A stretch of 64,000 bases of DNA from Candidatus Omnitrophota bacterium (lineage in GTDB: Bacteria > Omnitrophota > Omnitrophia > Omnitrophales > Aquincolibacteriaceae), in the NCBI GenBank assembly GCA_049324575.1, contig JBMONI010000004.1:43960-107959 (forward strand), given 5' to 3'. A program made the position numbers and the translations under genes. Numbering within the stretch: position 1 is the stretch's first letter; the number at the start of each line of letters is the position of its first letter. The notes under the pieces are model-generated. The model was given only the letters and a program-made list of their open reading frames with translations. It searched no databases and had not been told where the DNA came from. Below, piece after piece: positions 44,528 to 63,084 of the stretch.

Positions 44528-44529
44528 GT

Positions 44530-44910: not shown

Positions 44911-44916
44911 GCGCTC

Positions 44917-48748: not shown

Positions 48749-48794
48749 CCACGGAAAACCCCGGGGGCTTTTTGCGGTCCGGATGGGAAAAAAA

Positions 48795-50060
48795 CTATTT
48801 CTTTGCACGCCCTTTTCCTTTCGATCGTTTTTTGTCCGCTTTCTTTTCGGGACCGGCGCCGGCAAAATCCCCCTCCGGCGCGATCAGACCGTTCTCATAA
48901 GCGCCCAGGATCGCCATGACCGCATGCTGGACATGATCCACGCGGACTTCATCCGCAGTGGCCGTGGCTCGAAAACCTCCCGCCATCAACGGCGCGGTCC
49001 CGGCGCCTTGCGGGATCTGCAGCTGAAGAACGACCTCCAATCCTTCCCGAACGAAATTCGCATAACAGACCGTGCGTTTTTCATCGTTGAGTGCCCGGGC
49101 CACTTCATACGCCCGGTTGATCCCTTCCACCAGCGAGGCGGCGGAAATACTTCTGAAGTTATAATTTTCGCAAGTATCCCCTCGCCCGTATTTAGACGTC
49201 AAGTAATCCGCCATTTCAAAAATAAATTCGGCATAACGGGGGTCCGGATCGATCCGGTACAATTTGGCATAGGCCTGGAGCTGCCAGGGAATGAAGTCGG
49301 AACTCGGTTGCATGCGCCAAAAGCCCCGGTAATAGGGAAAGGCTTTCTCAACGATCCTCTGGTACGCTTCACGGCCATACGTTTTTCGCATCTGCGCCAG
49401 CGCAAGCAAGGCCTGGCCCGGATAAAAACTCTGCGTTCGATCCGTTTTCGCGCCTTCGAGTTCGCCGGCAAACGACAGCGCCTGCCCTTCCGCGGCCCGC
49501 GCTTCCCCGGGAGCGGGGAAAAAGGACCTCAATTTCCCATGTGAGCTCTGCAGCGTTTGGATCCCTCGCGCCAGACCCTGGGCGATATCGGCATAGCGAG
49601 CGGGATCGAGTTCAAGCATGGCAAGGATCAGAAAAGCGGAATACCCCAGCTTAAGCTGCCCGGGAGTCATATTCAGATAGTAATATTGCCCCGGATAATC
49701 GAAAGCCAAATGATCGGAGAAAAAGTCGAGGCCTTTCCGCGCAAGCCGGAGCAGGCGGTCATCCTGAAGATGCTGAGCAAGCGACGCGAGAGCCCAGGCC
49801 GCCGCCGTTTCTCTCAAACGCCCCCCGGCCAGTCCGCACGAGGTCTTTTTCGTCTGGTTCGCATAATTGATGAATTCCTCGTTTTCGTTATTGAGGAACC
49901 ACTCTCCGGCCGCCGTCAAAGCCGATTCGAAACGGCCGGGAGTAGCCCGACTCATTGTCTTCTCTGAGATCGAACCCGCGATTGTGATCGCTCCCCCCAT
50001 CACTACGGCAAGAGATATCCCCATGGCCCCGACGAGATGCTGGATGCGGGATCGCCTCAT
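48795..50060 (-). CDS. Secreted protein resembling an (alpha/alpha)6-barrel, with Lys-rich C-terminal tail; paralog of the C-terminal domain of 46877..48748
   Basis: N-terminal signal-like MRRSRIQHLVGAMGISLAVVMGGAITIAG. Motifs parallel the neighbour: RETAAAWALASLAQ, SFYPGQALLALAQMRKTY, FIPWQLQAYAKLYR. Tail ...KKADKKRSKGKGRAKK. Fold assignment is tentative. Confidence 0.5.
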   Translation of the reverse strand: MRRSRIQHLVGAMGISLAVVMGGAITIAGSISEKTMSRATPGRFESALTAAGEWFLNNENEEFINYANQTKKTSCGLAGGRLRETAAAWALASLAQHLQDDRLLRLARKGLDFFSDHLAFDYPGQYYYLNMTPGQLKLGYSAFLILAMLELDPARYADIAQGLARGIQTLQSSHGKLRSFFPAPGEARAAEGQALSFAGELEGAKTDRTQSFYPGQALLALAQMRKTYGREAYQRIVEKAFPYYRGFWRMQPSSDFIPWQLQAYAKLYRIDPDPRYAEFIFEMADYLTSKYGRGDTCENYNFRSISAASLVEGINRAYEVARALNDEKRTVCYANFVREGLEVVLQLQIPQGAGTAPLMAGGFRATATADEVRVDHVQHAVMAILGAYENGLIAPEGDFAGAGPEKKADKKRSKGKGRAKK

Positions 50061-50070
50061 TAATGAACCC

Positions 50071-51465
50071 CTATTTCGAATGTCTGAACCCCGGACTCAA
50101 TATCCCGAGGCATGCTCCCATCAAAGCACACAATAATAACGACATATTCACATGGTCAAGCATAAAACTAATCGACGCATGCCCCAGGATCATCAATACC
50201 GGAACAAAAAAACCCATGCCAAAAAGAAACTGGAATCGACTTGGCGTCCTTTGGAGCATAAGAACAGACTCGATGAAAAATACTAGAATAAAAAGAAAAT
50301 AGAACCAAGCGCCGAGACCCTCTTCCGCGAGAATGGTCAAATAATGGTTCATGGCTTTATAATCCGCCATGTAAACGTTTTGGGGAGAGGTTTTTTTGAA
50401 AGTCTTTCGGTACGGATAATATCCTTTGGTGCCGACACCCCACACGGGGTTTTCTTTGAACATTTCTACCGCATAGTTCGCCCCCCGAATATTATGCGCG
50501 AACGATTGCGGCTCTTCCATCTCATCTTGGAGAGTGCTGACCTCTTGCAACGTTGCCTTAAAATCAATGTTCGTTTTCAAAAATAAAAATAATAAACAGG
50601 CTATTAAAACGCATGGGATGAAGATCCGTCTCGATCGATATTTTAAAATACAGCCCCCTATGAATGTTATTACTCCCATGAGAAAAAAAATGATGGTCCC
50701 ACGTGAATTGAACGCCAAAATCGCAATAAATGAACTACCAATGGTTAGGGCGGGTATTAAAATCTGAATCAGATGGATCTGCCCTTTAATCGGCCGCATC
50801 TTTTTTTCATCATCGAATTGCATGAAGGAATAAATAAAATAACTTATGGAAAGGAAGAAACCAACAGCGAGGACCTCTCCAATCCAGTTCGCGTGGAATC
50901 GATTAGAAATAAGGTATTTTTCAACCGCAGGATGGAAATAAAGCCAATCGGAAGCAAAGGGATTAAGCCGAATGTCATATGCAGAAAGACTTCCCCTCGT
51001 TATTAGTGAAGGCAAAGATAATGAGCATAAGAATAGAACCATCCCTATCGAAACCGAAACGATACCCACAGCTCGCTTTCGAGAAGCAGAAAACACATAA
51101 GCAAGCGCCATGGTTCCTAGACAGAAAAACCAGACGATCGGCTGCTGCGTAAAATTCTCAACAAGAACGATTTTTACGTCTTTGTCTGGCCCATTACTTG
51201 TCGCTGAAAGGAAATAGGCAAATCCCAATCTTATGATTTGGTAAATGCAGAATACACAAAACATCCCAAAACATAATGGGATTCTACGAAGGCTTAAACG
51301 CACATCGCTATTGGCGAAAACAAGAAACAAAACGAGGGTGGAAAAAACCAGTAAACAGCGCAACTCCGCTAACGCAAAAGAATCGTAACCTTTCGAAAGA
51401 AACAATGCTCCGAGCAAGGCTGAGAAAAAAAAATACGGAATTTGTCTCAGATGGCTATTGACCAC
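50071..51465 (-). CDS. O-antigen ligase-like (Wzy_C family) polytopic membrane protein, cassette 3 partner; visibly lower GC than its neighbours
   Basis: 10-12 hydrophobic helices. Wzy_C signature NHYLTILAEEGLGAWFYFLFILVFF in the C-terminal part. GTG start at 51465. Paralogous to 55286..56746 and 59610..61031. Confidence 0.7.
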   Translation of the reverse strand: MVNSHLRQIPYFFFSALLGALFLSKGYDSFALAELRCLLVFSTLVLFLVFANSDVRLSLRRIPLCFGMFCVFCIYQIIRLGFAYFLSATSNGPDKDVKIVLVENFTQQPIVWFFCLGTMALAYVFSASRKRAVGIVSVSIGMVLFLCSLSLPSLITRGSLSAYDIRLNPFASDWLYFHPAVEKYLISNRFHANWIGEVLAVGFFLSISYFIYSFMQFDDEKKMRPIKGQIHLIQILIPALTIGSSFIAILAFNSRGTIIFFLMGVITFIGGCILKYRSRRIFIPCVLIACLLFLFLKTNIDFKATLQEVSTLQDEMEEPQSFAHNIRGANYAVEMFKENPVWGVGTKGYYPYRKTFKKTSPQNVYMADYKAMNHYLTILAEEGLGAWFYFLFILVFFIESVLMLQRTPSRFQFLFGMGFFVPVLMILGHASISFMLDHVNMSLLLCALMGACLGILSPGFRHSK

Positions 51466-51507: not shown

Positions 51508-54500
51508 TCATTCCTGATCGACCCATTCGCAGCAATCACACCGGACCATTTTCTTCCCTTTGGGATCGGTCGGATCCAGTTCTTTCGCAGTTCCATTTGC
51601 TTCGCATATCTCCTCAGGCGCCGGTTCGTCTGGATCCTGCGGATTCTGTTCATCCGGATCAGGGCGGGTATCTCCGACAGACGAGCAAACTTTATCGCTT
51701 GAAATCCCACAAAGCTGAACCCCCTCGCCTTGGCAACATTTGTCTTGAGATTCATCATCCCCATCATCGGCGTCATCCCCCGGATCGGTGTCATCCCCAT
51801 CTTCATCGCATTTACACCCGCCGACCCCTTGGCATCCGCACATGGTTCCTTCTTCCATCGCCTTCGCAAGCTGTTGAGCCATCTGTTTATGAAGGTTTTC
51901 AACCGAATCATTGGGATCTGCATCTTGCCCTTCCATATGACACGGCGTTGTTACACATCTTTCCGGTTTCGCAGGTTCTTGTTTTATTTCTCCACCCTCA
52001 CCCTGGACCTTGCACATGCTCATCCCCGGACACGAGCAGTCTTCTCCCGGCGTATTGCAATTTTCGTCGCCCGGCTTACACCAGAATGCGCAGGGATTTT
52101 CGATCCCCCAGGCCATACAACGCGCGGTTTGGCGGTCATAAAGATGTTTCGTGCGTTCCGAATCGCTCTTCGACACGCATTCGCCGGTCCAATCACTGCC
52201 CCAGCTGCTCGATGGAGGTATCGGATCTCCGCCTTCAAGACAGCCTTCACCGATGAAACTCACATGACAGTAATTCCCCGCGGGACATTCGCTGTCCGCC
52301 GTGCAATATCCTCCGCCGCTTCCCGCTTTTTCGCAAACCGAATTTTGGCAGACATACCCCGCGGCACAATCCGTATCTTTCGCGCAGGAGGTCGATAATG
52401 AACAGGCACAATAGCCGGTCGTCAGATTGCATTTCCCGGTCCCTCCAGCAGAGGCACAGTCCGAATCCGCTTTGCACAGCGCGGTATTCTTTCGGCAATT
52501 TCCCTGCACACAACATTCGCCCGATCCACATGGAGCAGAAGCCGAACAAGCGTTGCCGAGCGGCTGACAAATCGGTTCCACCGCAGGACAGGTCGTTCCC
52601 TGGCAAGTCGGCTGAAGACAATATTCCCCGGGCTTGCATCGAACACTGCCGCACTGCTCCCCCGTCGTGTTTTCCTGACAGATACCGCCGTAAGTGCTTT
52701 TGACGCAAATAAGATTGCAAGACGCTGAAGAACCCGTCGTCGGACAGCAATTGTTATGCGAAGTGCACGGGGTGATCCCCGCCTGCCCAAGACAGTAGCC
52801 GAACGTATCCGCAGAGGCTTGTCTCTGGCAACTATACCCAAACGAGCAGTTCATGTCGTCCATACACCGCCCGCCGGTGGTGTCAAAAACGCAAGAACCC
52901 AAGGCATCAGATGGTTTGATCTTTTGACATTTTTCGTAATTTTTGCAATCAGCGGCCGTCATGCAAGTCCCGACAGGCTTGCAATCTCCGAGCCCCGCGC
53001 TGCTCTGGAAGCACACATTTCCCGCCATACAATGCGCCGTTTCACGGCATTTTCCCGAAGGAATATTTTCGCAAAGTCCGTAGTCGTCGGAAGGCGCCGT
53101 ACGTTTGCAATACCCATTTTCACCGCAAAGAGAATCATCCTGGCAGGCATTGGCCTTGTTTTGGCATACTCCAGCAGCCCCTTCGGCACCCGCCTGGATA
53201 CAGGATTCATAGGATCGGCACCAGCTGTCATCTTCGCAAGTCCCCGGCACACGGCAGCGGCCGACATTCTCCCGGCCGCTCTTGATGAAACATTCCTCGC
53301 CGGCCGAACAGTCCCCTGGAGTCTCGCATTGTCCCTCGGCCATCGGCGTGCAAAGCCCGAGATCCTTATCGATATCTTCATGGGCCAGGTATTGGCAATA
53401 TTCCCCGTCTTGACACGGGTCCGAAAACTGACAGGCGTTCGCGTTCGCGGAACTCACCTTACAGACCCCGAAACGCTCGTTCGAAGAACTCCGGACGCAT
53501 TCCCGTCCGCTTGGACAATCCGCATTGGTACCGCACTGGCCGGGCGCCGGCGTTCCGCAACGGCCGTAATCATCGGCAGCGCTGACCTTCATACAAACCG
53601 TCCCGGCCCCGCCGCAATCCGAATCGGAGCCGCAGCGCGCAGGATCCGTAATGCATCGCCCGTATTGATCGGCATTGCGGAATTTTTGACAGAGCTCACC
53701 ATTCGCGCAACCGTCCGCGCCCTGGATATCGTAGCGGCAGGATCGTTCCGGATCGATCGAGCACTGCTGAGCAATGCAAACCATGCTTTCGCCGCAGTCG
53801 GCGTTCTCCTGACACTCGACATTCACGCACCGCGCGTCATAGCAAAACTGGTTCGCTCCGCATTCGCTGTCGGAGCCGCAACGGTCATAACACCGTCCGT
53901 CATAGCAGGCCCGCGGCGCGTCCGAGGGGCAATCCGTCGTGTAGGTTCCATCCCCGAGGTCGGTTTCTTGACAAGGTTCGCTGCAACCCCAATCGTCCGA
54001 GCACTCCGTCCCAGGCCCACCGCAAATGCTGTCGATCTTGCAATAGCAAGTATGCGTGGATGAGTTACACGCATGACCGGCCGCCGCACAATCCGAATCG
54101 AACGAACAGCGGTTTGAACGGTCCCCGACCACACAAGCCCCCCCCGGCTCCGAAGGCGAAGACCTGAGGCAAAATTGATCGCTCGGACAATCCGTATGCG
54201 CCGCGCATTCGCGGTCCGCGCAGCGCCCGTAGGGATCGCCCGGGCTGTCCTGTTTGCAGATCTTGGTCGGACTGTTGCAGTCCGTATCCGCCGTGCAATC
54301 GCCGGAAGACTTCCCGCGACAGATCCCGTATGCCCCCCCGCTCTTGTTCTCGCAAATATCCCCCGGCTTGCAGTCCCCGTCCGTTTGACATTCGCACCGC
54401 CCGGCCTCGACCGTGCCGCCGCTCACCGGCCCATCGGAACAGACGGAATAATCCTTGCCGGGCTTCACGCGGCAAACTTGACAGCCGGCACAATCGGTAT

Positions 54501-55134
54501 TGGTTTGGCAGGTCTTGGAAGGATCCAGCTGGCATTTGCCCGTGCTCAGTTCACAGACTTCTTCCGGTTCGCATTCGCTGTCCGCGCGACATCCGTCGAT
54601 ACAACCGCCCTGAGGCGCTCCCGAGGTCGTCCTTTTACAGAACTTTCCGGCGGGACAGTCTTCGCTGCTTTGACAGCCCGAAAAACATTTTCCGTATTCG
54701 TCACCGACCGATTCCTTGAGACAATGCTGGCCTGACTCGCAATCTCCATGGGTCTCGCATTCACCGCTCGATTTTCCGCGGCACAAGCCGTAAGGATCCG
54801 CCGAATTGGCCTTAAAACAGCTGTCCCCTGATCTGCAGTGCTCATCTTCTTGGCATTCGCATCGCCCTTCGGGAACATCCGCGCCGCTCACCGGGCCATC
54901 TACACATTTTTTAGGACTTGCGGCCAAATCACATACCTGACAACCAGAACAATCATCTGAACGAGTGCATTGATCTCGATCTTCAGTAATGCATATCTTA
55001 AGACTGCCGGTCTGTTTGCAATATTGGCCTGAGGGGCAATCGGAATCGACGGCACAAAAGAGAGCGAACGCGGTGACGGGAAAGGATAAAAAGACAGTAG
55101 CGACAAGAACGAACTGTATTAACCGCTTATACAA
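51508..55134 (-). CDS. Secreted cysteine-rich repeat protein (1,208 aa) with acidic Asp/Glu/Pro-rich C-terminal region
   Basis: Signal peptide MYKRLIQFVLVATVFLSFPVTAFA (TTG start at 55134 with AGGAGG 8 nt upstream). It contains dozens of ~35-aa units with pattern C-x3-4-(D/S)-x-(D/E)-C-x2-G-x2-C-x6-12-(Y/F)G-x-C, e.g. CETHGDCESGQHCLKESVGDEYGKC. The tail is DEDGDDTDPGDDADDGDDE...PDPDEQNPQDPDEP. Confidence 0.75.
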   Translation of the reverse strand: MYKRLIQFVLVATVFLSFPVTAFALFCAVDSDCPSGQYCKQTGSLKICITEDRDQCTRSDDCSGCQVCDLAASPKKCVDGPVSGADVPEGRCECQEDEHCRSGDSCFKANSADPYGLCRGKSSGECETHGDCESGQHCLKESVGDEYGKCFSGCQSSEDCPAGKFCKRTTSGAPQGGCIDGCRADSECEPEEVCELSTGKCQLDPSKTCQTNTDCAGCQVCRVKPGKDYSVCSDGPVSGGTVEAGRCECQTDGDCKPGDICENKSGGAYGICRGKSSGDCTADTDCNSPTKICKQDSPGDPYGRCADRECAAHTDCPSDQFCLRSSPSEPGGACVVGDRSNRCSFDSDCAAAGHACNSSTHTCYCKIDSICGGPGTECSDDWGCSEPCQETDLGDGTYTTDCPSDAPRACYDGRCYDRCGSDSECGANQFCYDARCVNVECQENADCGESMVCIAQQCSIDPERSCRYDIQGADGCANGELCQKFRNADQYGRCITDPARCGSDSDCGGAGTVCMKVSAADDYGRCGTPAPGQCGTNADCPSGRECVRSSSNERFGVCKVSSANANACQFSDPCQDGEYCQYLAHEDIDKDLGLCTPMAEGQCETPGDCSAGEECFIKSGRENVGRCRVPGTCEDDSWCRSYESCIQAGAEGAAGVCQNKANACQDDSLCGENGYCKRTAPSDDYGLCENIPSGKCRETAHCMAGNVCFQSSAGLGDCKPVGTCMTAADCKNYEKCQKIKPSDALGSCVFDTTGGRCMDDMNCSFGYSCQRQASADTFGYCLGQAGITPCTSHNNCCPTTGSSASCNLICVKSTYGGICQENTTGEQCGSVRCKPGEYCLQPTCQGTTCPAVEPICQPLGNACSASAPCGSGECCVQGNCRKNTALCKADSDCASAGGTGKCNLTTGYCACSLSTSCAKDTDCAAGYVCQNSVCEKAGSGGGYCTADSECPAGNYCHVSFIGEGCLEGGDPIPPSSSWGSDWTGECVSKSDSERTKHLYDRQTARCMAWGIENPCAFWCKPGDENCNTPGEDCSCPGMSMCKVQGEGGEIKQEPAKPERCVTTPCHMEGQDADPNDSVENLHKQMAQQLAKAMEEGTMCGCQGVGGCKCDEDGDDTDPGDDADDGDDESQDKCCQGEGVQLCGISSDKVCSSVGDTRPDPDEQNPQDPDEPAPEEICEANGTAKELDPTDPKGKKMVRCDCCEWVDQE

Positions 55135-55285
55135 CTTCGACCCCTCCTTCCGGCTATTGCGATACTTCTTACAAATCTTTATTATCTTTTGTTAATACAA
55201 CAATAGCCGACAAATTTTCAAAAAGCAAGGCCTACTTGCAGAATTTTTATATAGCAAATTCTAGCAATTTTAAACTGTCCGGTTT
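55135..55285 (-). promoter_or_regulatory. AT-rich intergenic region with a strong Shine-Dalgarno sequence; putative internal promoter for cassette 3
   Basis: 151-bp low-GC spacer between the ligase-like stop (55286) and the Cys-rich start (55134). GGAAGGAGGGG precedes the TTG start. Confidence 0.3.
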
Positions 55286-56746
55286 TCAACTTGAATGACG
55301 AAATCCCGGTTTTAAAACTCCCAGGCAAACGCCCATTAATAAATACAAGAGCAGCGCCATGTTGAAATTTCCGAGCATTTGACTGATGGAAGCATGCGCG
55401 AGGATCATCATGACCGGGCAAAAGACCGAAAGTCCCGCCATGAATTGAAAGCGGCTTCCGGTCCGCACGAGTCCCCGGACCGCGTAAAAAACAAAGGTCA
55501 GCAAAAATCCATAATAGAGCCATGCCCCGAACCCCTCTTCGGCCCGGATCAAAAGGTAATGGTTCATCGGATGAGCCGCCGCCAAGGTCGGTTCCACACG
55601 CCCCCGGTCTACTTCCGTCACGACTTTCGGAAAGACTTCCTCATATCGCCCGGTGCCCACTCCCCACACCGGCGCTTTTTTTGCCATGGCCAACGCCGCT
55701 TTCGCCCCGAGGATATTCTGCTGAAGACTTTGGGGATCCCGCACTTCCCGGCCCAAGGTTCTCACTTCCTGGATAACGGCCGGGGATGAGAGCGCAAATC
55801 CCGCCAGGGCGATGGCCAGAAGTCCGAGCCCCCACAGGACTTTTCGGTAATGCCCGTATTTGAGGAGGAGCCCCGCCGCGAACAAGAATAGCGCGGCCCC
55901 GAAGAAAAGGATCGTCCCGCGGGAATAAAAAGCAAAGACCGCCAAGCCCGCGAAGGCGATCACAGCGAGCAGGCTGACCATCTGAAGCATATTGATCGAC
56001 ATCCGGTTGGCCGAACGGCGGCGGACGGATTCGATATCCATAAATGCATAAATCAATAATCCCAGCGCGACAAAAAAACCCACGGCGATCACATCCCCCG
56101 CCCAGTTCCAATGCGCAAAGCGTCCGAAGATCATTCGGCCCACCACCGGGAGTTCGCTTAAAAAAGAAAAATAGAAACTGTGGGCACTGTCCTTGAGATA
56201 ATCCTGCCCGCGAACGCTTGTGAGCCAGGGCAGGCAATTCACAAGGAGGAAGACCGTTCCATAGACCAGGGACCAGAGCAATGTCCGCACCTTGCTCCGG
56301 CGGGAGCAGAGGCCGTAGCTTATAAGGAAGAGAGCCAGGAAGAAGAACCACTCGGTGGATTGCCCGAAAACCGGCGACGCGCCCGCTTCGACGGCCTGAT
56401 AGTGTTCGTGGCTTGAATGCATAAGCCGGATCCCCTGATACAGGAGGAAAGCCCCGAAAACGGTTCCCGCAGGTGACAGGAGCCCCCGGAGAAGGTTTCG
56501 GTCGAGGAAAAAACCGATTGCCACGCCCCCCATAAGGAGGAGGGCTCCGATCTTCCTCAATTCCACCGTCGCGGCATAATCGTAGCCGACCGCAAACAAG
56601 ACGAGAACCGCATAGGCGCAAAAGAGGAAGAAAATCGCCTTCCGCATCACCGCCTGCGCGGCTGCAGCCAGAGCGCCCATCCGTCCCTGAACTCTCGGAG
56701 CGATCAGGATCGCGGCGTGATTTTGTTCCAGCGATGAGGTTAACAT
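55286..56746 (-). CDS. O-antigen ligase-like (Wzy_C family) polytopic membrane protein, cassette 2 partner; GC-rich
   Basis: Signature NHYLLIRAEEGFGAWLYYGFLLTFVFY and multiple TM helices. The most-upstream start overlaps the end of the 56740..59364 gene by 7 nt. The real start may be the internal MGALAAAAQ (near 56680). Confidence 0.7.
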   Translation of the reverse strand: MLTSSLEQNHAAILIAPRVQGRMGALAAAAQAVMRKAIFFLFCAYAVLVLFAVGYDYAATVELRKIGALLLMGGVAIGFFLDRNLLRGLLSPAGTVFGAFLLYQGIRLMHSSHEHYQAVEAGASPVFGQSTEWFFFLALFLISYGLCSRRSKVRTLLWSLVYGTVFLLVNCLPWLTSVRGQDYLKDSAHSFYFSFLSELPVVGRMIFGRFAHWNWAGDVIAVGFFVALGLLIYAFMDIESVRRRSANRMSINMLQMVSLLAVIAFAGLAVFAFYSRGTILFFGAALFLFAAGLLLKYGHYRKVLWGLGLLAIALAGFALSSPAVIQEVRTLGREVRDPQSLQQNILGAKAALAMAKKAPVWGVGTGRYEEVFPKVVTEVDRGRVEPTLAAAHPMNHYLLIRAEEGFGAWLYYGFLLTFVFYAVRGLVRTGSRFQFMAGLSVFCPVMMILAHASISQMLGNFNMALLLYLLMGVCLGVLKPGFRHSS

Positions 56747-59364
56747 GGCTTCTTCGCTTTCAGACGATAATTACATTCTTCGCAATAGTAATTACCATCG
56801 ACAACGCTGAACTTCCCCGTGCCATCGGCGACCATACAAACATCGATATCTTTTTCCTGTTGCGAGTCCCATTCATAATCAGGATATTCGCGATCCGGTG
56901 AATATTTACTTTCCGGCGCACAGCACTGCGAATGAAGCGTACGCGTCTTGGCGCAAACCCGGTCCGTGGGCGGAGCCCCATGAGGGATTTCCATTCCTCC
57001 GCAAACACGATCGCCCGCCCGGTAGGTCTTGATATTATCGATCGAGGACGGGCTCATGAGGGAGGCTGCACTGTCCGAGCACCACTGCCAGCTATTGGAG
57101 CTTTTTTTATAGCACGGTTTAGTACCCGTGATGCGTGTCCCCGACTTGGCCTGTGCGGTATAGGCGAAGTAATAACAGCCATCCCCGGCATAGCCGACAT
57201 CCCCATAACCCGCCGCACACGTAGGAAGCGGGTCATTATCATCACCGCGCGACACACAACTTCCTTCCCCGTCTCGGATCTGACACCGCATTCCCTTGGG
57301 GCAATCCGAACTGCGCCTGCACCCATTTCCATCATCATCGTCATCGTCGTCGTCACCTTTGCCGCCACCGCCGCCTCCTCCGCCGCCGCCGTCATCATCC
57401 CCGCCGTCATCATCCCCGCCGTCGTCATCCCCGCCGTCATCATCCCCGTCGTCATCATCCCCGCTGTCATCATCATCGCCTTCATCGGACGATTTGCATA
57501 CACCGCTGGCGGAGCCGCTTACAATATCGCATTTCATATTGCATGTTCCGTTTATGGTGATCGCGCAGCAATCTGCATCACTTTGACAACCCTCGGCCAT
57601 TTTGCACACGCCTTTTCCATCGCTGATCACACAAGTATAGAAACACAGGGACGGTCCCGTGCAACAATCGGCAGTCGAGCTACAGCCCGTATCGATCGTC
57701 TCACACACCCCTTTCCCGTTAGTGATCTTACAAGTTTTGTTGCATGGAACTTGTCCATTACAACAATCGGCCGCTGTCGCGCACCCCGTATCGATCGTCT
57801 TACAAACTCCTTTCCCGTTAGTGATCTCGCAAGTTTTGTTGCATGGAACTTGTCCATTACAACAATCGGCCGCCGTCGCGCACCCCGATGAGATGCTAAC
57901 GCAATACCCGGCCCGGTCGTCCGCGGTTTTGAATTCGCATTTTTGGCCCGTCGCACAATCCGTTTTGCTATAGCAGCGTCCTTCCATTTTATTCAAAACA
58001 CAACGATACATGATCTTAGTAGTTCCAGTGCTGATATCCGGTACCGTGATCTGCTCGCCCCCGATATCGCACATTTCATGGCTCTCGCAATCACCTCCGG
58101 ACTCACACAATTCTTTCTTCTCACAGGCCCCGCCGCCCTCAGGACAATACTGCCAGCTTGCCGGACATCCGTTCTCTTCCGAGCAAGGCCTCCCTGTGCA
58201 ATTCCCGTACTGATTCCCCGACAGTTTTTCGCACATGGCCGCACCCTGGCATTGGCTATCCGTACTGCAATCCCCATAGCTTCGCCCCTGACAAATCCCG
58301 AACTCCCCTCCGTTCTTGTTTTCGCAGACACCGCCGTTCTTGCAGTCCAAATCTCCTTGGCACTCGCATCGGCCACTGGTGACCCGGTTACCGCTTACGG
58401 GCCCATTCACGCAAATCGAATAATTTTTCCCTTCTTTGGGACGGCAAACCATGCATCCCGAGCAGTCCTCATTGCTATCGCAGGTTTTCCCGGGATCGAA
58501 TTCACAAAACCCGGTCGAGGTTTGGCAAACCTCTTCAGGCTCACAATCCGAGCTGCTCCGGCATCCGGATTCGCATTTCCCGTAACTCGCCCCCGGGTAG
58601 GGCGCTTTGCAGAACGTGCCCGCGGCGCAATCGTCATTGGACCCGCAGGTTGCCAAACAAACCCCGTAGCGATCTGAAAAATTCTGCTTATAGCATTGGC
58701 TGCCCGGCTGGCATTGCGAATCGCTTTCGCATCCACATTGGCCGCCGCTTCCCCCCGAAGGAGAATCCACGCAGGTCCCGTTACTGCAATATTGGCAGCC
58801 GGTTTGGCATTCCGCATTGGACCGGCATCCCGGCATGCACCCCCCTTTTGCGGCGTTCGGAGAATTCTTCTGGCAATATTCTCCGGCCGCGCATTGGTCA
58901 TGACTTTGGCACTGCGTCACACAGCTCCCGACCTCATCCCCCGCATTCGCCTTTTTGCAAACCGTCCCGCTCTCGCAGTCCGAATCAAGGAGGCATTCAC
59001 CGGTCGAAGGCCCGCGGCACACCCCGAGCGGCTCTCCCGGATCTCCCTTGATACAGACGTCCCCGGTTTTGCAATGTTCGGCCGATTCGCATTCGCAACG
59101 CCCATCTCCCGCGCCCGTCCCGCTGGTCGGCCCGGCCACACATTTTTTGATGCTTCCGACGAGACCGCAGACTTCGCAACCCGAGCAATCATTGTTGTTG
59201 TTGCATTCATTGGGTCTCACGAGACAAACCCCGAAGCCCGGTGTAAAAAGATGACAATATTTTTCCGGCGTGCATTCACTATCCGAGGTGCAGGCCCATA
59301 ATGCATCTTGGGCTAAAAAAGCCAGCAACAAAGCAAAACTAAATGGTATGAAGCGCCGGTTCAT
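56740..59364 (-). CDS. Secreted cysteine-rich repeat protein (874 aa from ATG) with a ~50-aa poly-Asp/Gly tract
   Basis: ATG 59364 (MNRRFIPFSFALLLAFLAQDALWA; GAGGTGG SD). The track's GTG at 59373 adds MEK. It has the same C-rich unit as 51508..55134. Three tandem ~33-aa units GCATAADCCNGQVPCNKTCEITNGKGVCKTIDT are present, the third diverged. The acidic run is DEGDDDDSGDDDDGDDDGGDDDGGDDDGGDDDGGGGGGGGGGKGDDDDDDDDG. Confidence 0.75.
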   Translation of the reverse strand: MNRRFIPFSFALLLAFLAQDALWACTSDSECTPEKYCHLFTPGFGVCLVRPNECNNNNDCSGCEVCGLVGSIKKCVAGPTSGTGAGDGRCECESAEHCKTGDVCIKGDPGEPLGVCRGPSTGECLLDSDCESGTVCKKANAGDEVGSCVTQCQSHDQCAAGEYCQKNSPNAAKGGCMPGCRSNAECQTGCQYCSNGTCVDSPSGGSGGQCGCESDSQCQPGSQCYKQNFSDRYGVCLATCGSNDDCAAGTFCKAPYPGASYGKCESGCRSSSDCEPEEVCQTSTGFCEFDPGKTCDSNEDCSGCMVCRPKEGKNYSICVNGPVSGNRVTSGRCECQGDLDCKNGGVCENKNGGEFGICQGRSYGDCSTDSQCQGAAMCEKLSGNQYGNCTGRPCSEENGCPASWQYCPEGGGACEKKELCESGGDCESHEMCDIGGEQITVPDISTGTTKIMYRCVLNKMEGRCYSKTDCATGQKCEFKTADDRAGYCVSISSGCATAADCCNGQVPCNKTCEITNGKGVCKTIDTGCATAADCCNGQVPCNKTCKITNGKGVCETIDTGCSSTADCCTGPSLCFYTCVISDGKGVCKMAEGCQSDADCCAITINGTCNMKCDIVSGSASGVCKSSDEGDDDDSGDDDDGDDDGGDDDGGDDDGGDDDGGGGGGGGGGKGDDDDDDDDGNGCRRSSDCPKGMRCQIRDGEGSCVSRGDDNDPLPTCAAGYGDVGYAGDGCYYFAYTAQAKSGTRITGTKPCYKKSSNSWQWCSDSAASLMSPSSIDNIKTYRAGDRVCGGMEIPHGAPPTDRVCAKTRTLHSQCCAPESKYSPDREYPDYEWDSQQEKDIDVCMVADGTGKFSVVDGNYYCEECNYRLKAKKPC
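57330..57490 (-). repeat. Low-complexity GTC/ATC-rich coding tract encoding poly-Asp/Gly
   Basis: The plus strand reads catcatcatcgtcatcgtcgtcgtc...gtcatcatccccgcc repeated. In frame this gives (DDDGG)n and G10. Confidence 0.7.
57600..57890 (-). repeat. Three tandem ~99-bp coding repeats (two near-identical, one diverged) in the 874-aa Cys-rich gene
   Basis: cccgtatcgatcgtct[c/t]acaaac...caacaatcggccgc[t/c]gtcgcgcacc occurs twice in succession and is preceded by a diverged copy. They encode GCATAADCCNGQVPCNKTC[E/K]ITNGKGVC[K/E]TIDT. Confidence 0.7.
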
Positions 59365-59609: not shown

Positions 59610-61031
59610 TTAGCGGGTATGGCTGAACTTGGGATGGAGGATCCCGAGGCAGGCTCCCATGAAAGTGTAGACAAGGATGTTCATGTTGAAGTTCTCAAGG
59701 AGTGGATGGATCGTCGCGTGGCCGTGCACCATAACGAGCCAGGAAAAGATCGCTAATCCGATAATAAATTGATACCGGCTGGCCGCATGCAAAAGGCCGC
59801 TGATCACTTCCGCGAAAAACAGGATCAGAAAAAGATAATAGAGATAGGCGCCGACACCTTCTTCAGCCCATATCTGCAAATAATGATTCATGGCATAGTC
59901 TTCGGCCAAAGTCATTCGATGATCCGGTCGTAGTCCGGTTTTTTCTTGAATCAAGGGATATAAACGTAAATAGCCGTCGGTCCCGACACCCCAAACTGGA
60001 AATTCTCGGTGCATGGCTAAAGCGATCTTCCCCGCGTGTAAATTTTCACTAAAGCTCGTCGGGCTTTTGATTTCATTTTCCAGCGTTTGGACTTCCTGAA
60101 ATGTCGATTTGAAACTCCCGCTACTAAAGAAATATCCGACAACGAGCAATCCGGCCATCCCCGCAGCCAGCCAAACCCTGGATGCCTGAAGCTTCCACAA
60201 GAGCACGCTGACAAAAACAAGAACAGCCATAACAAACCAACTGATGCTCCCGCGCGAAAAGAAACCCAGGATCGAGAGCGTTCCAAGCCCCACCGCCAGC
60301 ATGGGGAAAAGGATTTCGAACAGATTAACCCGACTGCGGCTCGCCCTCCGGCTCCCTTCGCGATCGAATTGCACGAATGCATAAATAAATGAGGCCGCAC
60401 CCAGGAACACTCCGATCGCGACGAGATCCCCCATCAGGTTATGCCAGGCGAAGGTGCCGAGAAAATATTTCGAAATTAATGGGTGACAATACAGAATCGG
60501 GAAGAAAAAAATCTGAAGCCCAGGAATAACGTAGCCCCAGCTCCCGTCCTGAAATAATGACGGGAGGTGATTCGCTATGAGAAAAAGAACACTCCCGAGG
60601 GTGACGCTGACGAGAGCTTTAGTGGGACGGCGCGATGAAAAAAGAACATAGGAAATTGTCATCAGCGAAAAATAAAAAAACCAGTCTAAAGGCGCCTTGG
60701 AATAAAATTGAAAAGGCTCCCAAAAAAGAACACGATCATGCGGTTGTCCCTTCGCAAAGAAAAGAACTGCCCACAAAAATCGCAAAATCTGGAATAGCAG
60801 CAATGCAATAAAACAACAAAGCGCACTGCTAAGTGAGATGCCACGGCGGGGTTTTAAAACCCGAAAATTGACAACAAATAACACCAACAGAGCAAATGCC
60901 AACAGCATACGAAAATTCGCATGGTGTTCTTCGCCATGCTTGAAGGTGTGATTGTCGAATCCAAGCGCAAGGAACGCGATGGCGATAAAAGCACAGAACA
61001 GTACAAGATACCCCTTTGCAGAGCTGCGCAA
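59610..61031 (-). CDS. O-antigen ligase-like (Wzy_C family) polytopic membrane protein, cassette 1 partner; intermediate GC
   Basis: Signature NHYLQIWAEEGVGAYLYYLFLILFFA and multiple TM helices. TTG start at 61031 per the track (alternative internal ATG further in). Confidence 0.7.
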   Translation of the reverse strand: MRSSAKGYLVLFCAFIAIAFLALGFDNHTFKHGEEHHANFRMLLAFALLVLFVVNFRVLKPRRGISLSSALCCFIALLLFQILRFLWAVLFFAKGQPHDRVLFWEPFQFYSKAPLDWFFYFSLMTISYVLFSSRRPTKALVSVTLGSVLFLIANHLPSLFQDGSWGYVIPGLQIFFFPILYCHPLISKYFLGTFAWHNLMGDLVAIGVFLGAASFIYAFVQFDREGSRRASRSRVNLFEILFPMLAVGLGTLSILGFFSRGSISWFVMAVLVFVSVLLWKLQASRVWLAAGMAGLLVVGYFFSSGSFKSTFQEVQTLENEIKSPTSFSENLHAGKIALAMHREFPVWGVGTDGYLRLYPLIQEKTGLRPDHRMTLAEDYAMNHYLQIWAEEGVGAYLYYLFLILFFAEVISGLLHAASRYQFIIGLAIFSWLVMVHGHATIHPLLENFNMNILVYTFMGACLGILHPKFSHTR

Positions 61032-61107: not shown

Positions 61108-61977
61108 CTACTCTCGTTTTGGGTCTTTTTGGTACTTGCAGCAAAATAGTGAATCCCTCGAATTGCCTTCCGTACAGTGCCCGGCCCCTACATAGACATA
61201 ATCTTTAGGCGGTGGGCACGAGCTGGGAAAGATCGAACCTTCGTCGCAAGTCGGAGTTCCGCCATTTTTGCTACACGGCTTTGTAACATCAATGCCACTT
61301 ATCGCGCCATCATTGCACACGATTTTTCGCCGCGCCGGAGCCGCGGGCTCATCGACTATACATTTCCAGGAGGGGTTATCATGATCTTGCCACGGACTGA
61401 CACACTCGGGCTCCCCCATGCTTGCCACCCCCCCATGTTTTTTACATTTTTCGTCCGCTTGTTCTTCATCACTAGGATTTCCTCCAGGAGGGTCCGTGGG
61501 ATCTGTCGGATCTGTTTTAGGATCACCACCCGGAGGAGTCTTCTTGTCCTTACAGCAATCCGACGGTAAAGCAGGCCCCGCGCTTGCGCCGGGACATTGA
61601 GGTGTTCCCGTGCGCTCCTGGTTCGCGCCACATCCATTCTGGGGACTGCCTCCACTGGGACAAGTCGCTTTCGCTTCTGTATAAATCCTGCCTTTTGCAT
61701 TGCATATGCAACCAGACTCCGCTTGGTTCGTACAGTATTCATCCTTTGCGGTATAACATTCCATGCCCTCACTACTCTGAGGAAGATTACTCCACGAATG
61801 AGCTCCCGTGCACTGCCTGGAAGGCGCACATACATGCTTATTTCCTCCACCTCCGCCGCCCCCTGCGCCTCCTCCCTTACCATCCTTAGCTGGCGCCGCG
61901 TATGTTTCACCCATCATGAGGCAAAAGGCGCAGAAAAAACACCCCACTATGCCCAAATACGTTCGTGAGATCTTCAT
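61108..61977 (-). CDS. Small secreted cysteine-rich protein (289 aa) with poly-Gly and Pro/Asp/Thr-rich low-complexity segments
   Basis: ATG 61977 with GGAGGAG SD. Signal peptide MKISRTYLGIVGCFFCAFCLMMGETYAAPA. Contains GGGAGGGGGGGN and PGGDPKTDPTDPTDPPGGNPSDEE and about 26 Cys. Confidence 0.7.
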   Translation of the reverse strand: MKISRTYLGIVGCFFCAFCLMMGETYAAPAKDGKGGGAGGGGGGGNKHVCAPSRQCTGAHSWSNLPQSSEGMECYTAKDEYCTNQAESGCICNAKGRIYTEAKATCPSGGSPQNGCGANQERTGTPQCPGASAGPALPSDCCKDKKTPPGGDPKTDPTDPTDPPGGNPSDEEQADEKCKKHGGVASMGEPECVSPWQDHDNPSWKCIVDEPAAPARRKIVCNDGAISGIDVTKPCSKNGGTPTCDEGSIFPSSCPPPKDYVYVGAGHCTEGNSRDSLFCCKYQKDPKRE

Positions 61978-62397: not shown

Positions 62398-63084
62398 TTA
62401 GCGCACGATGCTGCGAACGAACGCATCGCTTGGGGCAAGGCCGCTGGACTGAAGGCTCTCGAGGGTCTTTTTCGCGGTCGTTTTGGATTCGAAGGCATTG
62501 GCGCAAACTTGATAGTACTCCCCGCTCGGAATGACAAAGCCGTCAAAACCTTTCTCTTCCAGTTTCTGGATCTGGCGGGTCGCGGCAGACTCGGTCTTGT
62601 AGGTCAGCACCTGGATCGTGTATTTGCCGTCCTGGCGGCGTTCTGTGATCGTGCGGGTCGCGCGCGTCGTCGTTGTTTCACTCTGGAAGGTCGTGACCAC
62701 CCCATCCCCGGGGATTGCCGGCGTTTCCGGTTCACGCACGGAGTCCCCGTCGATCTGGACCGCCGGCGCGGCGACCGGCTCGATCACATTGACGCGCATC
62801 GAGGCCAGGCCATCGACCTTGGCGCGGAGATCCTCGACCTGGGCCGTGTATTTGGCTTCGATCTTTTTCACCGTAGCCGCGGCGCCCTGTTTTCCGGCGT
62901 CATAGCCCGCCGAATAGACCCAGACCCCGGCGACCATAGCGCCGATTCCGAGAAAGAGAAGATGATCCAGCCGGAAGGTTAATGAAAAACGCTCGAAAAA
63001 AGGCGTTCGCGGGACCCCCATTTTCCGGGGCAAGCTGCTGGCAACATCAAAAAGATCGGCCTGGCGGCCACGTAAAATTTCCAT
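62398..63084 (-). CDS. SPOR-domain membrane protein, second copy
   Basis: TM LLFLGIGAMVAGVWVY. C-terminal SPOR-like KYTIQVLTYKTESAATRQIQKLEEKGFDGFVIPSGEYYQVCANAFESKTTAKKTLESL. The most-upstream start overlaps the GH1 gene by 38 nt; the real start may be the internal MGVPRT at about 63021. Confidence 0.6.
   Translation of the reverse strand: MEILRGRQADLFDVASSLPRKMGVPRTPFFERFSLTFRLDHLLFLGIGAMVAGVWVYSAGYDAGKQGAAATVKKIEAKYTAQVEDLRAKVDGLASMRVNVIEPVAAPAVQIDGDSVREPETPAIPGDGVVTTFQSETTTTRATRTITERRQDGKYTIQVLTYKTESAATRQIQKLEEKGFDGFVIPSGEYYQVCANAFESKTTAKKTLESLQSSGLAPSDAFVRSIVR

What the first reader, a model, noticed from the sequence alone, without database searches (positions are those of the whole stretch)
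51508..59364. Previously unfamiliar ~35-aa cysteine-rich repeat with embedded Asp motif, plus poly-Asp/Gly tracts and acidic tails
The 874- and 1,208-aa proteins consist almost entirely of units with pattern C-x(3-4)-(D/S)-x-(D/E)-C-x2-G-x2-C-x(6-12)-(Y/F)-G-x-C, 4-6 Cys per unit. I could not match this to EGF, LDLa, TIL, Kazal or the Myxococcus Cys-repeat by eye. The 874-aa protein also has a ~50-aa run of DDDGG/poly-G and both have D/E/P-rich tails. These features suggest Ca2+ binding or mineral/metal interaction in an oxidising compartment. Near-identical 99-bp tandem copies indicate recent repeat expansion.
Basis: seen in the sequence. Interest (0 to 1): 0.6.

Follow-up and report, generated by a model that had tools for sequence, protein, structure and literature searches.

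The report
Cysteine-rich surface proteins with private glycan-transferase partners
Two orphan secreted proteins of an uncultured Omnitrophota bacterium are strings of small disulfide-stapled modules distantly like the insect Dumpy/Dickkopf modules, and each is followed by its own copy of a rare O-antigen-ligase-type membrane enzyme, which suggests (but does not prove) dedicated glycosylation of surface proteins.

Summary
The window (a Candidatus Omnitrophota MAG) encodes a 1,208-aa and an 874-aa secreted protein on the minus strand. Both are about 12-13% Cys. They contain 24 copies of a ~30-aa four-Cys unit, C-x5-C-x5-C-x9-14-G-x-C, plus 5- and 6-Cys variants. There is also a 51-aa Asp/Gly tract and a 99-bp tandem duplication.

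The unit is not a new fold class. It is a divergent member of the 'CxxDxDCxxGxxC' two-disulfide modules (Dumpy DPY, Dickkopf_N, DUF7107). It scores at or just below Pfam thresholds, and the third loop is lengthened into a hairpin. The whole proteins have no detectable homologue among 5.8 billion proteins other than each other.

Three consecutive cassettes pair a Cys-rich secreted protein with a private Wzy_C (O-antigen ligase / O-oligosaccharyltransferase family) paralogue. The only three other loci found with this Wzy_C subfamily show the same arrangement.

My best reading is rod-like structural or adhesive envelope proteins, each modified by a cognate transferase. Ca2+ or mineral binding is untested and plausible only for the acidic tract.

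The parts
51508..55134 (-). CDS 'A', 1,208 aa: secreted Cys-rich modular protein (156 Cys)
   Evidence: ORF with SD-like GAAGGAGGGG at 55141-55150 and a signal peptide ending AFA. It is 37% identical to B over the N-terminal ~420 aa. Opposite-strand ORFs are shadows that one public gene call mis-called.
52240..55056 (-). Module array of A (residues 27-965): 15 canonical 4-Cys units (residues 91-783 = window 52786-54864), plus 2 five-Cys modules, 1 six-Cys module and 6 short Cx5Cx5Cx4-8C modules
   Evidence: The DUF7107 hit above the gathering score covers residues 916-958 (window 52261-52389).
51511..52239 (-). C-terminal non-repeat region of A (residues 966-1208), with an acidic D/E/P-rich tail (residues 1101-1200)
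   Evidence: composition in 50-aa blocks; no Pfam hit
56740..59364 (-). CDS 'B', 874 aa from the ATG (877 from the upstream GTG): secreted Cys-rich modular protein (106 Cys). It matches NCBI ACOY3K_01175, which is annotated from an internal start (826 aa).
57895..59301 (-). Region of B that holds its 9 canonical 4-Cys units and 2 five-Cys modules (residues 25-493, 877-aa numbering)
57496..57888 (-). Four 33-aa six-Cys variant units of B. The first two form the near-identical 99-bp tandem (TRF 57686-57887).
57328..57480 (-). 51-aa Asp/Gly low-complexity tract of B (GDDDDSGDDDDGDDDGGDDDGG...GGGGGGGGGGKGDDDDDDDDG)
61108..61977 (-). CDS 'C', 289 aa: third secreted Cys-rich protein (8.3% Cys, poly-Gly run, DP/TDP-rich linker). 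Not detectably homologous to A or B.
50071..51465 (-). Wzy_C-family membrane protein, 464 aa, starting 42 nt downstream of A
   Evidence: Pfam PF04932 at 49.4 bits (GA 31.7); at least 10 hydrophobic segments and a ~80-aa hydrophilic loop
55286..56746 (-). Wzy_C-family membrane protein, 486 aa, directly downstream of B. The start is uncertain: ATG 56746 overlaps B's stop, and alternative ATGs lie at 56680 and 56647.
   Evidence: PF04932 at 37.2 bits; alignment A2
59610..61031 (-). Wzy_C-family membrane protein, 473 aa, starting 76 nt downstream of C
   Evidence: PF04932 at 42.3 bits; alignment A2
55225..55239 (-). Terminator-like hairpin plus T-run between the B cassette and the A cassette
   Evidence: (consensus scan only, not above the chance count)

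Best explanation
A and B are secreted orphan paralogues. Each is a long string of about 30-residue modules, and each module is probably stapled by two disulfides. The modules are elongated variants of the DPY / Dickkopf_N / DUF7107 type: the same C-x5-C-x5-C core, with the third loop extended to a 9-14-residue beta-hairpin that ends in (Y/F)-G-x-C. Such arrays form extended, protease- and tension-resistant rods in extracellular matrix proteins such as Dumpy and CREMP. The most likely role is therefore a structural or adhesive component of the envelope or extracellular surface of an Omnitrophota cell.

The array evolves by in-frame unit duplication (the 99-bp tandem) and by slippage in simple-sequence tracts (the poly-Asp/Gly run).

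The genes belong to three tandem two-gene cassettes. In each, a Cys-rich secreted protein gene is followed 40-90 nt downstream, on the same strand, by its own diverged paralogue (35-37% identity) of a rare Wzy_C-family membrane protein. By analogy with pilA-pilO/tfpO and with pglL genes that sit next to their targets, each Wzy_C paralogue most likely transfers an undecaprenyl-pyrophosphate-linked glycan onto its upstream partner in the periplasm.

Shown here: gene structure, module anatomy, orphan status, Wzy_C membership and the conserved pairing. Inferred: disulfide topology, rod shape, surface location and the glycosyl-transfer step.
For: Module anatomy and non-randomness.

Signal peptides and ribosome-binding sites. 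Every Cys of A (156) and B (106) lies after the signal peptide, and both counts are even.

AF2 model of three units: mean pLDDT 83.9. Each unit is a short turn plus a beta-hairpin, with no inter-unit packing elements.

Relationship to DPY, Dickkopf_N and DUF7107:
- Per-unit Pfam scan: Dickkopf_N hits 8 of 24 units, DX 6 of 24, Dumpy_DPY 4 of 24.
- PDB profile hits: Ascaris carboxypeptidase inhibitor 3fju (E = 4e-4), Dkk4, Dumpy 1oig.
- Proteins retrieved by the unit profile score strongly for Dickkopf_N, DUF7107 or Dumpy_DPY.
- Three modules of A have exactly the DPY spacing Cx5Cx5Cx4C.
- The DPY spacing and 1-3/2-4 connectivity, and the structural role of such arrays, come from PMC12723725.

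Orphan status: the only hit to A among 5.8 billion proteins is B.

Cassettes:
- Wzy_C scores are above the gathering score for all three partners.
- The three partners are 35-37% identical to each other.
- This Wzy_C subfamily was found in only three other loci.
- In L001 and L005 the upstream same-strand gene is again a large Cys-rich protein (12.9% and 9.8% Cys), unrelated in sequence to A and B.
- In L003 the upstream gene is a 1,796-aa Pro/Ser/Thr-rich low-complexity protein.
- Spacing between partner and Wzy_C is 40-76 nt in five of the six cases; at B the mechanical ATG overlaps B's stop, and later in-frame ATGs would give 59-92 nt.
- Control: Cys-rich repeat proteins from other lineages (P0002, P0016) have no Wzy_C neighbour.
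- Precedent: 21 of 31 pglL homologues lie next to their target genes in the same orientation, and pilO lies next to pilin (PMC3643930).
Against: There is no direct evidence for glycosylation.
- No glycan-assembly genes (initiating transferase, flippase, glycosyltransferases) were seen among the window ORFs scanned with Pfam (37-64 kb).
- No PglL-specific family was returned for the Wzy_C proteins at E <= 0.1.
- The AF2 model of the Wzy_C protein was too poor to use (pLDDT 49.6).
- hhalign against E. coli WaaL was uninformative.

The three window cassettes descend from duplication, so independent observations of the pairing number about 3-4, not 6.

Disulfide connectivity could not be read from the model. 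If the organism is anaerobic and lacks Dsb-type oxidases, the Cys residues could be reduced and bind metal instead.
Confidence: 0.55

Rival explanations
1. The proteins are disulfide-rich structural or adhesive surface proteins, but the Wzy_C genes are ordinary O-antigen or exopolysaccharide ligases or polymerases. They would act on glycolipid rather than on the neighbouring protein, and the adjacency would reflect co-duplication or a shared envelope theme only.
For: Wzy_C is shared by WaaL ligases and some Wzy polymerases. No PglL-specific family was returned at E <= 0.1. In L001 the cassette lies near exopolysaccharide-type genes: Poly_export/SLBB, a TPR protein and a putative outer-membrane barrel. 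The three window pairs are paralogous.
Against: A single genome rarely needs three diverged ligases, each placed 40-90 nt behind a different secreted Cys-rich gene. The arrangement recurs in all three other loci that carry this Wzy_C subfamily, even though the upstream proteins are not homologous to each other. No LPS-core or O-antigen genes were seen in the scanned part of the window.
Confidence: 0.25
2. The proteins would be Ca2+-, metal- or mineral-interacting matrix proteins. The Asp motif in each unit and the poly-Asp/Gly tract would bind cations, or reduced Cys would bind metals or sulfide minerals.
For: There is a 51-aa Asp/Gly tract and acidic tails, and D+E is about 15-16%. Some units resemble the Lustrin A Cys-rich domain weakly (2 of 24 units). 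Some Omnitrophota are magnetotactic (my own knowledge, not tested here).
Against: The unit's Asp positions are Asp in only 12 of 24 units and Asp/Glu in 13 of 24. No Ca2+-binding family (EF-hand, TSP3, RTX, cbEGF, LDLa) was reported at E <= 0.1. No magnetosome or biomineralisation genes were found in the window. The regular even-numbered Cys pattern and the confident hairpin model fit disulfides better than metal clusters.
Confidence: 0.12
3. The module arrays are multi-headed protease inhibitors or toxin-like effectors that the putatively predatory or episymbiotic Omnitrophota cell deploys against a host.
For: The best PDB sequence hit is the Ascaris metallocarboxypeptidase inhibitor 3fju (E = 4e-4). 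Weak Pfam hits include CarbpepA_inh, ACI44, Squash and tachystatin. One retrieved protein (P0036) fuses the same unit to Kazal inhibitor domains. A 9,994-aa giant gene lies nearby, of the kind linked to predation in Omnitrophota (bioRxiv 10.1101/2023.11.21.568195).
Against: All these similarities fall below the family thresholds. They cover only the generic CxxDxDCxxGxxC half of the unit. Nothing resembling a reactive-site loop is conserved across the 24 units.
Confidence: 0.06
4. The ORFs are not real genes; they would be long open frames arising by chance or as the shadow of opposite-strand genes.
For: One public gene call (Logan) annotates opposite-strand ORFs of 435, 179 and 142 aa instead of A.
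Against: The frames are 3.6 kb and 2.6 kb and open at about 55% GC. They have strong ribosome-binding sites and signal peptides. The two paralogues conserve their Cys register. The tandem repeats are in frame. The unit profile retrieves unrelated database proteins at E values down to 1e-18.
Confidence: 0.01

Closest known systems
Dumpy DPY module (Pfam PF21164; PDB 1OIG) and related two-disulfide tandem modules of structural matrix proteins (e.g. CREMP)
   Same: Both are four-Cys modules whose first two spacings are C-x5-C-x5-C, with an Asp just before the second Cys. Both occur in long head-to-tail arrays in secreted proteins. Three modules of A have the exact DPY spacing Cx5Cx5Cx4C (PMC12723725).
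   Different: The canonical unit has a 9-14-residue third loop ending in (Y/F)GxC, where DPY has 4 residues. Dumpy_DPY matches only 4 of 24 units, below the gathering score. Here the host is bacterial rather than an insect, and the modules do not alternate with EGF domains.
Dickkopf_N (PF04706) and DUF7107 (PF23416), as they occur in bacterial Cys-rich repeat proteins
   Same: They share the CxxDxDCxxGxxC motif. Database proteins retrieved by the unit profile score up to 103 bits for Dickkopf_N and 106 bits for DUF7107. Residues 916-958 of A pass the DUF7107 gathering score.
   Different: The canonical units of A and B are below threshold: Dickkopf_N scores 22.5 against 25 for A and gives nothing for B. 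Neither Pfam family has a known function in bacteria.
NCBIfam TIGR04201 Myxo_Cys_RPT (Cys-rich repeat)
   Same: It is a 22-residue repeat with the same N-terminal motif. A has six weak stretches matching it.
   Different: The score is 18.8 bits against a cut-off of 25, and B has no hit. The repeat covers only the first half of the unit.
Small unnamed secreted proteins (90-190 aa) carrying 2-4 copies of CQFDTDCxxGxxCxKxxGxxYGxC (e.g. P0017, P0034, P0040, P0071, P0097, P0113)
   Same: They match the full length of the unit profile (positions 2-30), including the YGxC end.
   Different: They are short proteins with long linkers, they come from other organisms (mostly unnamed metagenome proteins), and none reaches a Pfam threshold.
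Target-adjacent O-oligosaccharyltransferases of the Wzy_C family (pilA-pilO/tfpO; pglL next to pilin or comP)
   Same: In both, a Wzy_C-family membrane protein is encoded immediately downstream of, and co-oriented with, a secreted protein gene (PMC3643930).
   Different: Here the partners are large Cys-rich or low-complexity proteins rather than pilins. No PglL-specific family was returned. There are three private paralogues in a row. Activity is untested.
WaaL O-antigen ligase
   Same: Both have the Wzy_C domain, many transmembrane segments and a large hydrophilic loop.
   Different: The window has no LPS-core gene context. There is no detectable sequence match to solved structures, and the comparison with E. 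coli WaaL was uninformative.

Membership tests
Pfam DUF7107 (PF23416) | Whole-protein score at or above the gathering cut-off of 24.6 bits | tested here: met
   A scores 27.0 bits from one stretch, residues 916-958, which consists of short Cx5Cx5Cx4-8C modules rather than canonical units. B has no hit.
Pfam Dickkopf_N (PF04706) | Score at or above the gathering cut-off of 25 bits | tested here: not met
   A scores 22.5 bits over 4 stretches; B has no hit. Single units: 8 of 24 hit, best E = 3e-4.
Pfam Dumpy_DPY (PF21164) | Score at or above the gathering cut-off of 27 bits, and Cys spacing Cx5Cx5Cx4C | tested here: not met
   4 of 24 units hit, best E = 6e-4. The exact spacing occurs in 3 short modules of A only; canonical units have x9-14 as the third loop.
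NCBIfam TIGR04201 Myxo_Cys_RPT | Score at or above the cut-off of 25 bits | tested here: not met
   A scores 18.8 bits; B has no hit.
EGF / LDLa / Kazal / TIL / Myxococcus DUF4215 repeat | Any Pfam match near threshold | tested here: not met
   None of these was reported for A or B at E <= 0.1. For single units EGF_2 has E = 3.4 and hEGF has E = 5. DUF4215 is present instead in the unrelated upstream protein of L001.
Two-disulfide DPY-like fold | 1-3 / 2-4 disulfide connectivity and a hairpin architecture | tested here: inconclusive
Pfam Wzy_C (PF04932; O-antigen ligase / O-OTase superfamily) | Score at or above the gathering cut-off of 31.7 bits | tested here: met
   The three downstream partners score 49.4, 37.2 and 42.3 bits. 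The L001 relative scores 46.5 bits.
PglL-type O-oligosaccharyltransferase | PglL_A motif (Pfam PF15864), found in PglL but not in WaaL (PMC3643930) | tested here: not met
   Only Wzy_C was returned for the three proteins at E <= 0.1. PilO also lacks these motifs according to PMC3643930, so this does not exclude O-OTase activity.
O-oligosaccharyltransferase (functional class) | Transfer of a Und-PP-linked glycan to Ser/Thr of an acceptor protein | not testable with these tools
   Only genomic adjacency to candidate acceptors is available.
WaaL O-antigen ligase (functional class) | Location in an LPS core or O-antigen gene cluster, and the conserved Arg/Arg/His of the periplasmic loop | tested here: inconclusive
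   There are no LPS genes in the scanned part of the window. Invariant Arg, His and NHY..AEEGxGA residues exist in the subfamily alignment, but they could not be mapped onto E. coli WaaL.

The most novel reading that the evidence does not exclude
The rare Wzy_C subfamily would be a set of substrate-dedicated transferases that act on a Cys-containing C-terminal tail of large secreted proteins. The action could be S-linked (cysteine) glycosylation, or covalent anchoring of the protein to a lipid-linked glycan for surface display. That would be a protein-modification or sorting system not described for this enzyme family.

The hint comes from L003. It is the one non-Cys-rich partner, and its single Cys in 1,796 residues sits 13 residues from the C-terminus. 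All six partners have their last Cys within 13 residues of the end.
Probability: 0.08. Interest if true: 0.8.

Novelty: new variant of a known kind. Interest (0 to 1): 0.5.

Why it matters
If the pairing reflects function, it gives a concrete and testable handle on how an uncultured, probably host-dependent phylum builds and decorates its cell surface. The model is one private transferase per large surface protein, in the same genomic neighbourhood as a giant 9,994-aa gene.

It would also extend the 'oligosaccharyltransferase next to its target' rule from pilins to large disulfide-rich matrix-like proteins. It shows that DPY/Dickkopf-type two-disulfide modules, best known from animal extracellular matrix and signalling proteins, are used for long tandem arrays in bacteria.

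On the practical side, the 1,208-aa gene is missing or mis-called in public protein sets, which is why such families stay invisible to searches.

Tried and rejected
- Whole-protein homology search with A returned only its paralogue B.
- The Wzy_C profile returned only proteins of this genome and the relatives from L003 and L005, plus one distant TPR-Wzy_C protein.
- The first scan of GTDB genomes found nothing. The second found one locus, L003. The metagenome scan found one locus, L001.
- The AF2 model of the Wzy_C protein from a five-sequence alignment was too poor to search (pLDDT 49.6).
- The PDB sequence search with the Wzy_C profile gave no hit.
- hhalign of the Wzy_C profile against E. 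coli K-12 WaaL aligned only a spurious hydrophobic stretch, so the catalytic residues could not be mapped.
- I looked for homology between C289 or the L001/L005/L003 upstream proteins and A/B, and found none.
- The unit profile hits nothing else in the six-frame translation of the window, including the giant ORF.
- Promoter and terminator scans gave counts no higher than shuffles.
- Attempts to walk beyond the window through neighbouring proteins failed because they are not on record.
- The Omnitrophota papers do not mention Cys-rich proteins or O-antigen ligases.
Full report
**What is there**

The minus strand of 48.8-62.0 kb carries a compact, co-oriented gene array. The genes are, in order:
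- a 289-aa Cys-rich protein 'C' (61977-61108) and a 473-aa membrane protein (61031-59610);
- a Cys-rich protein 'B' (59364-56740; 874 aa from the ATG, 877 aa from the upstream GTG) and a 486-aa membrane protein (56746-55286);
- a 1,208-aa Cys-rich protein 'A' (55134-51508) and a 464-aa membrane protein (51465-50071);
- a 421-aa secreted protein (50060-48795).

Residue numbers for B below follow the 877-aa GTG-start ORF.

A has a strong Shine-Dalgarno-like GAAGGAGGGG just upstream of its TTG start. A, B and C all begin with signal peptides.

The source is a Candidatus Omnitrophota MAG. B is NCBI ACOY3K_01175, annotated there from an internal start without the signal peptide. The two neighbouring membrane proteins are annotated as 'O-antigen ligase family protein [Candidatus Omnitrophota bacterium]'.

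**Check of the observation**

A has 156 Cys (12.9%) and B has 106 (12.1%). The commonest Cys-Cys spacing is 5 residues, seen 55 times in A and 37 times in B.

The canonical unit is C-x5-C-x5(6)-C-x9-14-C with Gly at position -2 from the last Cys. An alignment of 24 units (15 in A at residues 91-783, 9 in B) has four invariant Cys and one invariant Gly. Its consensus is xxxCxxDxDCxxGxxCxxxxxxxxxGxC.

A regex for the unit (C-x5-C-x5-6-C-x7-12-G-x-C, overlaps counted) matches 17 and 12 times, against 0.41+/-0.67 and 0.27+/-0.53 in 2,000 residue shuffles. The repeat is therefore far beyond what composition alone would give.

The remaining modules are variants:
- a five-Cys module CxxxxxCxxCxxC(x8-10)C(x14)CxC, two per protein at equivalent positions;
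- a 33-aa six-Cys module, four copies in B and one in A;
- short Cx5Cx5Cx4-8C modules.

The module arrays span residues 27-965 of A, and 28-626 plus 685-706 of B. The last 170-240 residues are Cys-containing but not repetitive.

It is 1-2 residues too long in the first loop, and the period is 28-33 aa rather than 35.

The other features also hold up. The 51-aa Asp/Gly tract lies at 57328-57480 and is encoded by a 15-bp x6.7 repeat and a GCC x10 repeat. A has an acidic tail. The 99-bp x2.0 tandem at 57686-57887 is 94% matched, with 7 differences (4 synonymous, 3 not).

**What the unit is**

Against Pfam, A gives DUF7107 at 27.0 bits (GA 24.6; residues 916-958 only) and Dickkopf_N at 22.5 bits (GA 25). 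B gives nothing meaningful. NCBIfam gives TIGR04201 Myxo_Cys_RPT at 18.8 bits against a cut-off of 25.

When the 24 units are scanned one by one, they hit Dickkopf_N (8 units), DX (6), Dumpy_DPY (4) and Lustrin_cystein (2). All of these are below threshold.

A profile of the unit searched against PDB sequences gave only weak hits: the Ascaris carboxypeptidase inhibitor 3fju (E = 4e-4), Dkk4 and the Dumpy DPY module 1oig. Each aligns over the first half, CxxDxDCxxGxxC.

The same profile searched against 1.84 billion representative proteins gave only 212 hits at E <= 1e-3.
- Most match profile positions 1-18 only. They are bacterial Cys-rich repeat proteins that Pfam scores strongly as Dickkopf_N, DUF7107 or Dumpy_DPY.
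- A minority match the full unit, including the (Y/F)GxC end. Notable among them is a set of unnamed 90-190-aa secreted proteins with 2-4 copies of CQFDTDCxxGxxCxKxxGxxYGxC, plus one fungal protein. None reaches a Pfam threshold.

The DPY module has the spacing Cx5Cx5Cx4C, two disulfides (1-3, 2-4), and occurs in long arrays in the tension-bearing matrix protein Dumpy. CREMP and other structural proteins use similar modules (PMC12723725). Three short modules of A have exactly the DPY spacing.

I conclude that the canonical unit is a DPY / Dickkopf_N / DUF7107-type module in which the third loop has grown into a longer hairpin. It is a new variant of a known kind of module, not a new kind.

**Structure**

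AlphaFold2 was run on residues 600-690 of A, with seven other three-unit blocks supplied as the alignment. The model has mean pLDDT 83.9. Each unit shows the same pattern of a short bridge, a 3-residue helical turn and a beta-hairpin.

I could not access the coordinates, so the disulfide pairing remains inferred.

**Orphan status**

A search of 5.8 billion proteins with A returned only B. A and B are 37% identical over their first ~420 residues and share the same module order. C is not detectably related to either.

A itself is absent from the protein collection. In the Logan gene calls for the same contig, spurious opposite-strand ORFs were called in its place.

All three membrane proteins match Pfam Wzy_C, the O-antigen ligase family, at 49.4, 37.2 and 42.3 bits (GA 31.7). 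They are 35-37% identical to each other. They have at least 10 hydrophobic segments and a hydrophilic loop of about 80 residues.

This Wzy_C subfamily is very rare. The protein database returned only the window's own copies, two relatives and one distant TPR fusion. DNA scans found one metagenome locus (L001) and one Omnitrophota MAG locus in GTDB (L003). A third locus (L005) came from an ENA assembly.

In each of these loci the gene immediately upstream on the same strand, 40-52 nt away, is a large secreted-looking protein:
- L001: at least 791 aa, 12.9% Cys, with DUF4215 'Myxococcus' repeats and a GEGEGEGEG run;
- L005: at least 592 aa, 9.8% Cys, with an (SG)n(TG)n run;
- L003: 1,796 aa, Pro/Ser/Thr-rich and low-complexity, with a single Cys.

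These partners are not homologous to A, B or C.

As a control, Cys-rich repeat proteins from other lineages that the unit profile retrieved (P0002, P0016) have no Wzy_C neighbour. The conserved relationship therefore runs in one direction: this Wzy_C subfamily sits behind a large Cys-rich or low-complexity secreted protein.

**Mechanism proposed**

The Wzy_C family includes WaaL ligases and the O-oligosaccharyltransferases PglL, PilO/TfpO and PglS. For the transferases, adjacency to and co-orientation with the target gene is the rule: 21 of 31 pglL homologues follow it, and so do pilA-pilO and comP-pglL (PMC3643930).

I therefore propose two things. First, A, B and C are envelope or extracellular proteins, with A and B being rod-like arrays of two-disulfide modules. 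Second, each is glycosylated in the periplasm by its own Wzy_C paralogue, using a lipid-linked glycan made elsewhere in the genome.

Several points weaken this proposal:
- No PglL-specific family was returned, although PilO lacks the PglL motifs too.
- No glycan-synthesis genes were seen among the window ORFs scanned.
- The Wzy_C model was unusable, and the catalytic residues could not be mapped onto WaaL.
- The number of independent observations is small.

The main rival is that the Wzy_C genes act on glycolipid or exopolysaccharide and that the adjacency is incidental. L001 does lie next to polysaccharide-export genes.

The unit's two acidic positions are Asp in 12 of 24 units and Asp/Glu in 13 of 24 units. 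No Ca2+-binding family is detected. The unit's 'Asp motif' therefore gives no evidence for Ca2+ binding.

The Asp/Gly tract could bind cations with low affinity, but nothing in the context points to mineralisation. The tract is also the kind of slippage-prone simple sequence seen in the partners of other cassettes: poly-Gly in C, GE repeats in L001 and SG/TG repeats in L005.

**Verdict**

The repeat is a divergent, lengthened DPY / Dickkopf_N / DUF7107-type module in two orphan secreted proteins. The interpretation as a Ca2+ or mineral binder is unsupported, though it is not excluded for the acidic tract.

The more interesting finding is the conserved pairing with private Wzy_C paralogues. It suggests target-dedicated glycosylation of large surface proteins in Omnitrophota. 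This is a hypothesis resting on genomic context only.

Noticed in passing
window 6515-36499 (-): There is a giant ORF of 9,994 aa. Its only Pfam hit is a weak PG_binding_1 domain (26.4 bits), and it contains no copy of the Cys-rich unit. It fits the giant genes reported for Omnitrophota (bioRxiv 10.1101/2023.11.21.568195; 10.64898/2026.06.07.730766).
   Followed up: partly
window 51508-55134; L002 2092-5319: In the Logan gene calls for the same contig, the 1,208-aa gene is not called. Opposite-strand ORFs of 179, 435 and 142 aa are called in its place. The Logan contig also ends just upstream of the 486-aa Wzy_C gene, within B, possibly because of B's repeats. NCBI starts B at an internal codon and so loses the signal peptide.
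   Followed up: partly
L003 30-5420 (+), last 20 codons: The 1,796-aa Pro/Ser/Thr-rich partner of the Wzy_C relative in another Omnitrophota MAG has one Cys in the whole protein, and it sits 13 residues from the C-terminus (...GQSICYVIKSIPKTPVA). All six partner proteins have their last Cys within 13 residues of the end.
   Followed up: partly
window 48795-50060 (-) and 46877-48865 (-): The 421-aa secreted protein that starts 10 nt after the last Wzy_C gene is 32% identical to the C-terminal half of the next protein, an AMMECR1 fusion with weak GH88/pectate-lyase-like (alpha/alpha-toroid) similarity. Neither has a clear function.
   Followed up: partly
L001 3851-4633 (+); L005 3280-4143 (+): In both metagenome loci the Wzy_C relative is followed, tightly coupled, by a Peptidase_S9/esterase-like alpha/beta hydrolase. 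This gives a conserved three-gene order (Cys-rich protein, Wzy_C, hydrolase) that is not seen in the window.
   Followed up: no
L001 6140-10169 (+): Downstream of the L001 cassette lie a TPR protein, a 480-aa putative outer-membrane barrel and a Poly_export/SLBB protein. This is exopolysaccharide-export context, and it is relevant to the rival reading of the Wzy_C genes.
   Followed up: no
window 61108-61977 (-): The third Cys-rich protein (289 aa) carries a GGGAGGGGGGG run right after its signal peptide and a DPKTDPTDPTDPPGGNP linker. A has a similar PDPDEQNPQDPDEPAPEE tail. Such Pro/Asp/Thr linkers are the kind of low-complexity stretch that general O-glycosylation systems target.
   Followed up: no
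protein P0036 (223 aa, from the representative library): This protein alternates one copy of the same four-Cys unit with Kazal-type protease-inhibitor domains. The unit is therefore reused as a spacer or partner module in other secreted mosaics.
   Followed up: no
window 44030-45843 and 62398-63084 (-): Two SPOR-domain proteins (308 aa and 228 aa) lie on either side of the region, at 44917-45843 and 62398-63084. In the public gene calls, YajQ (DUF520) and two PilZ genes lie near 44.0-44.9 kb. A 256-aa ORF matching only the C-terminal part of GH1 overlaps the 228-aa SPOR gene at 63047-63084.
   Followed up: no
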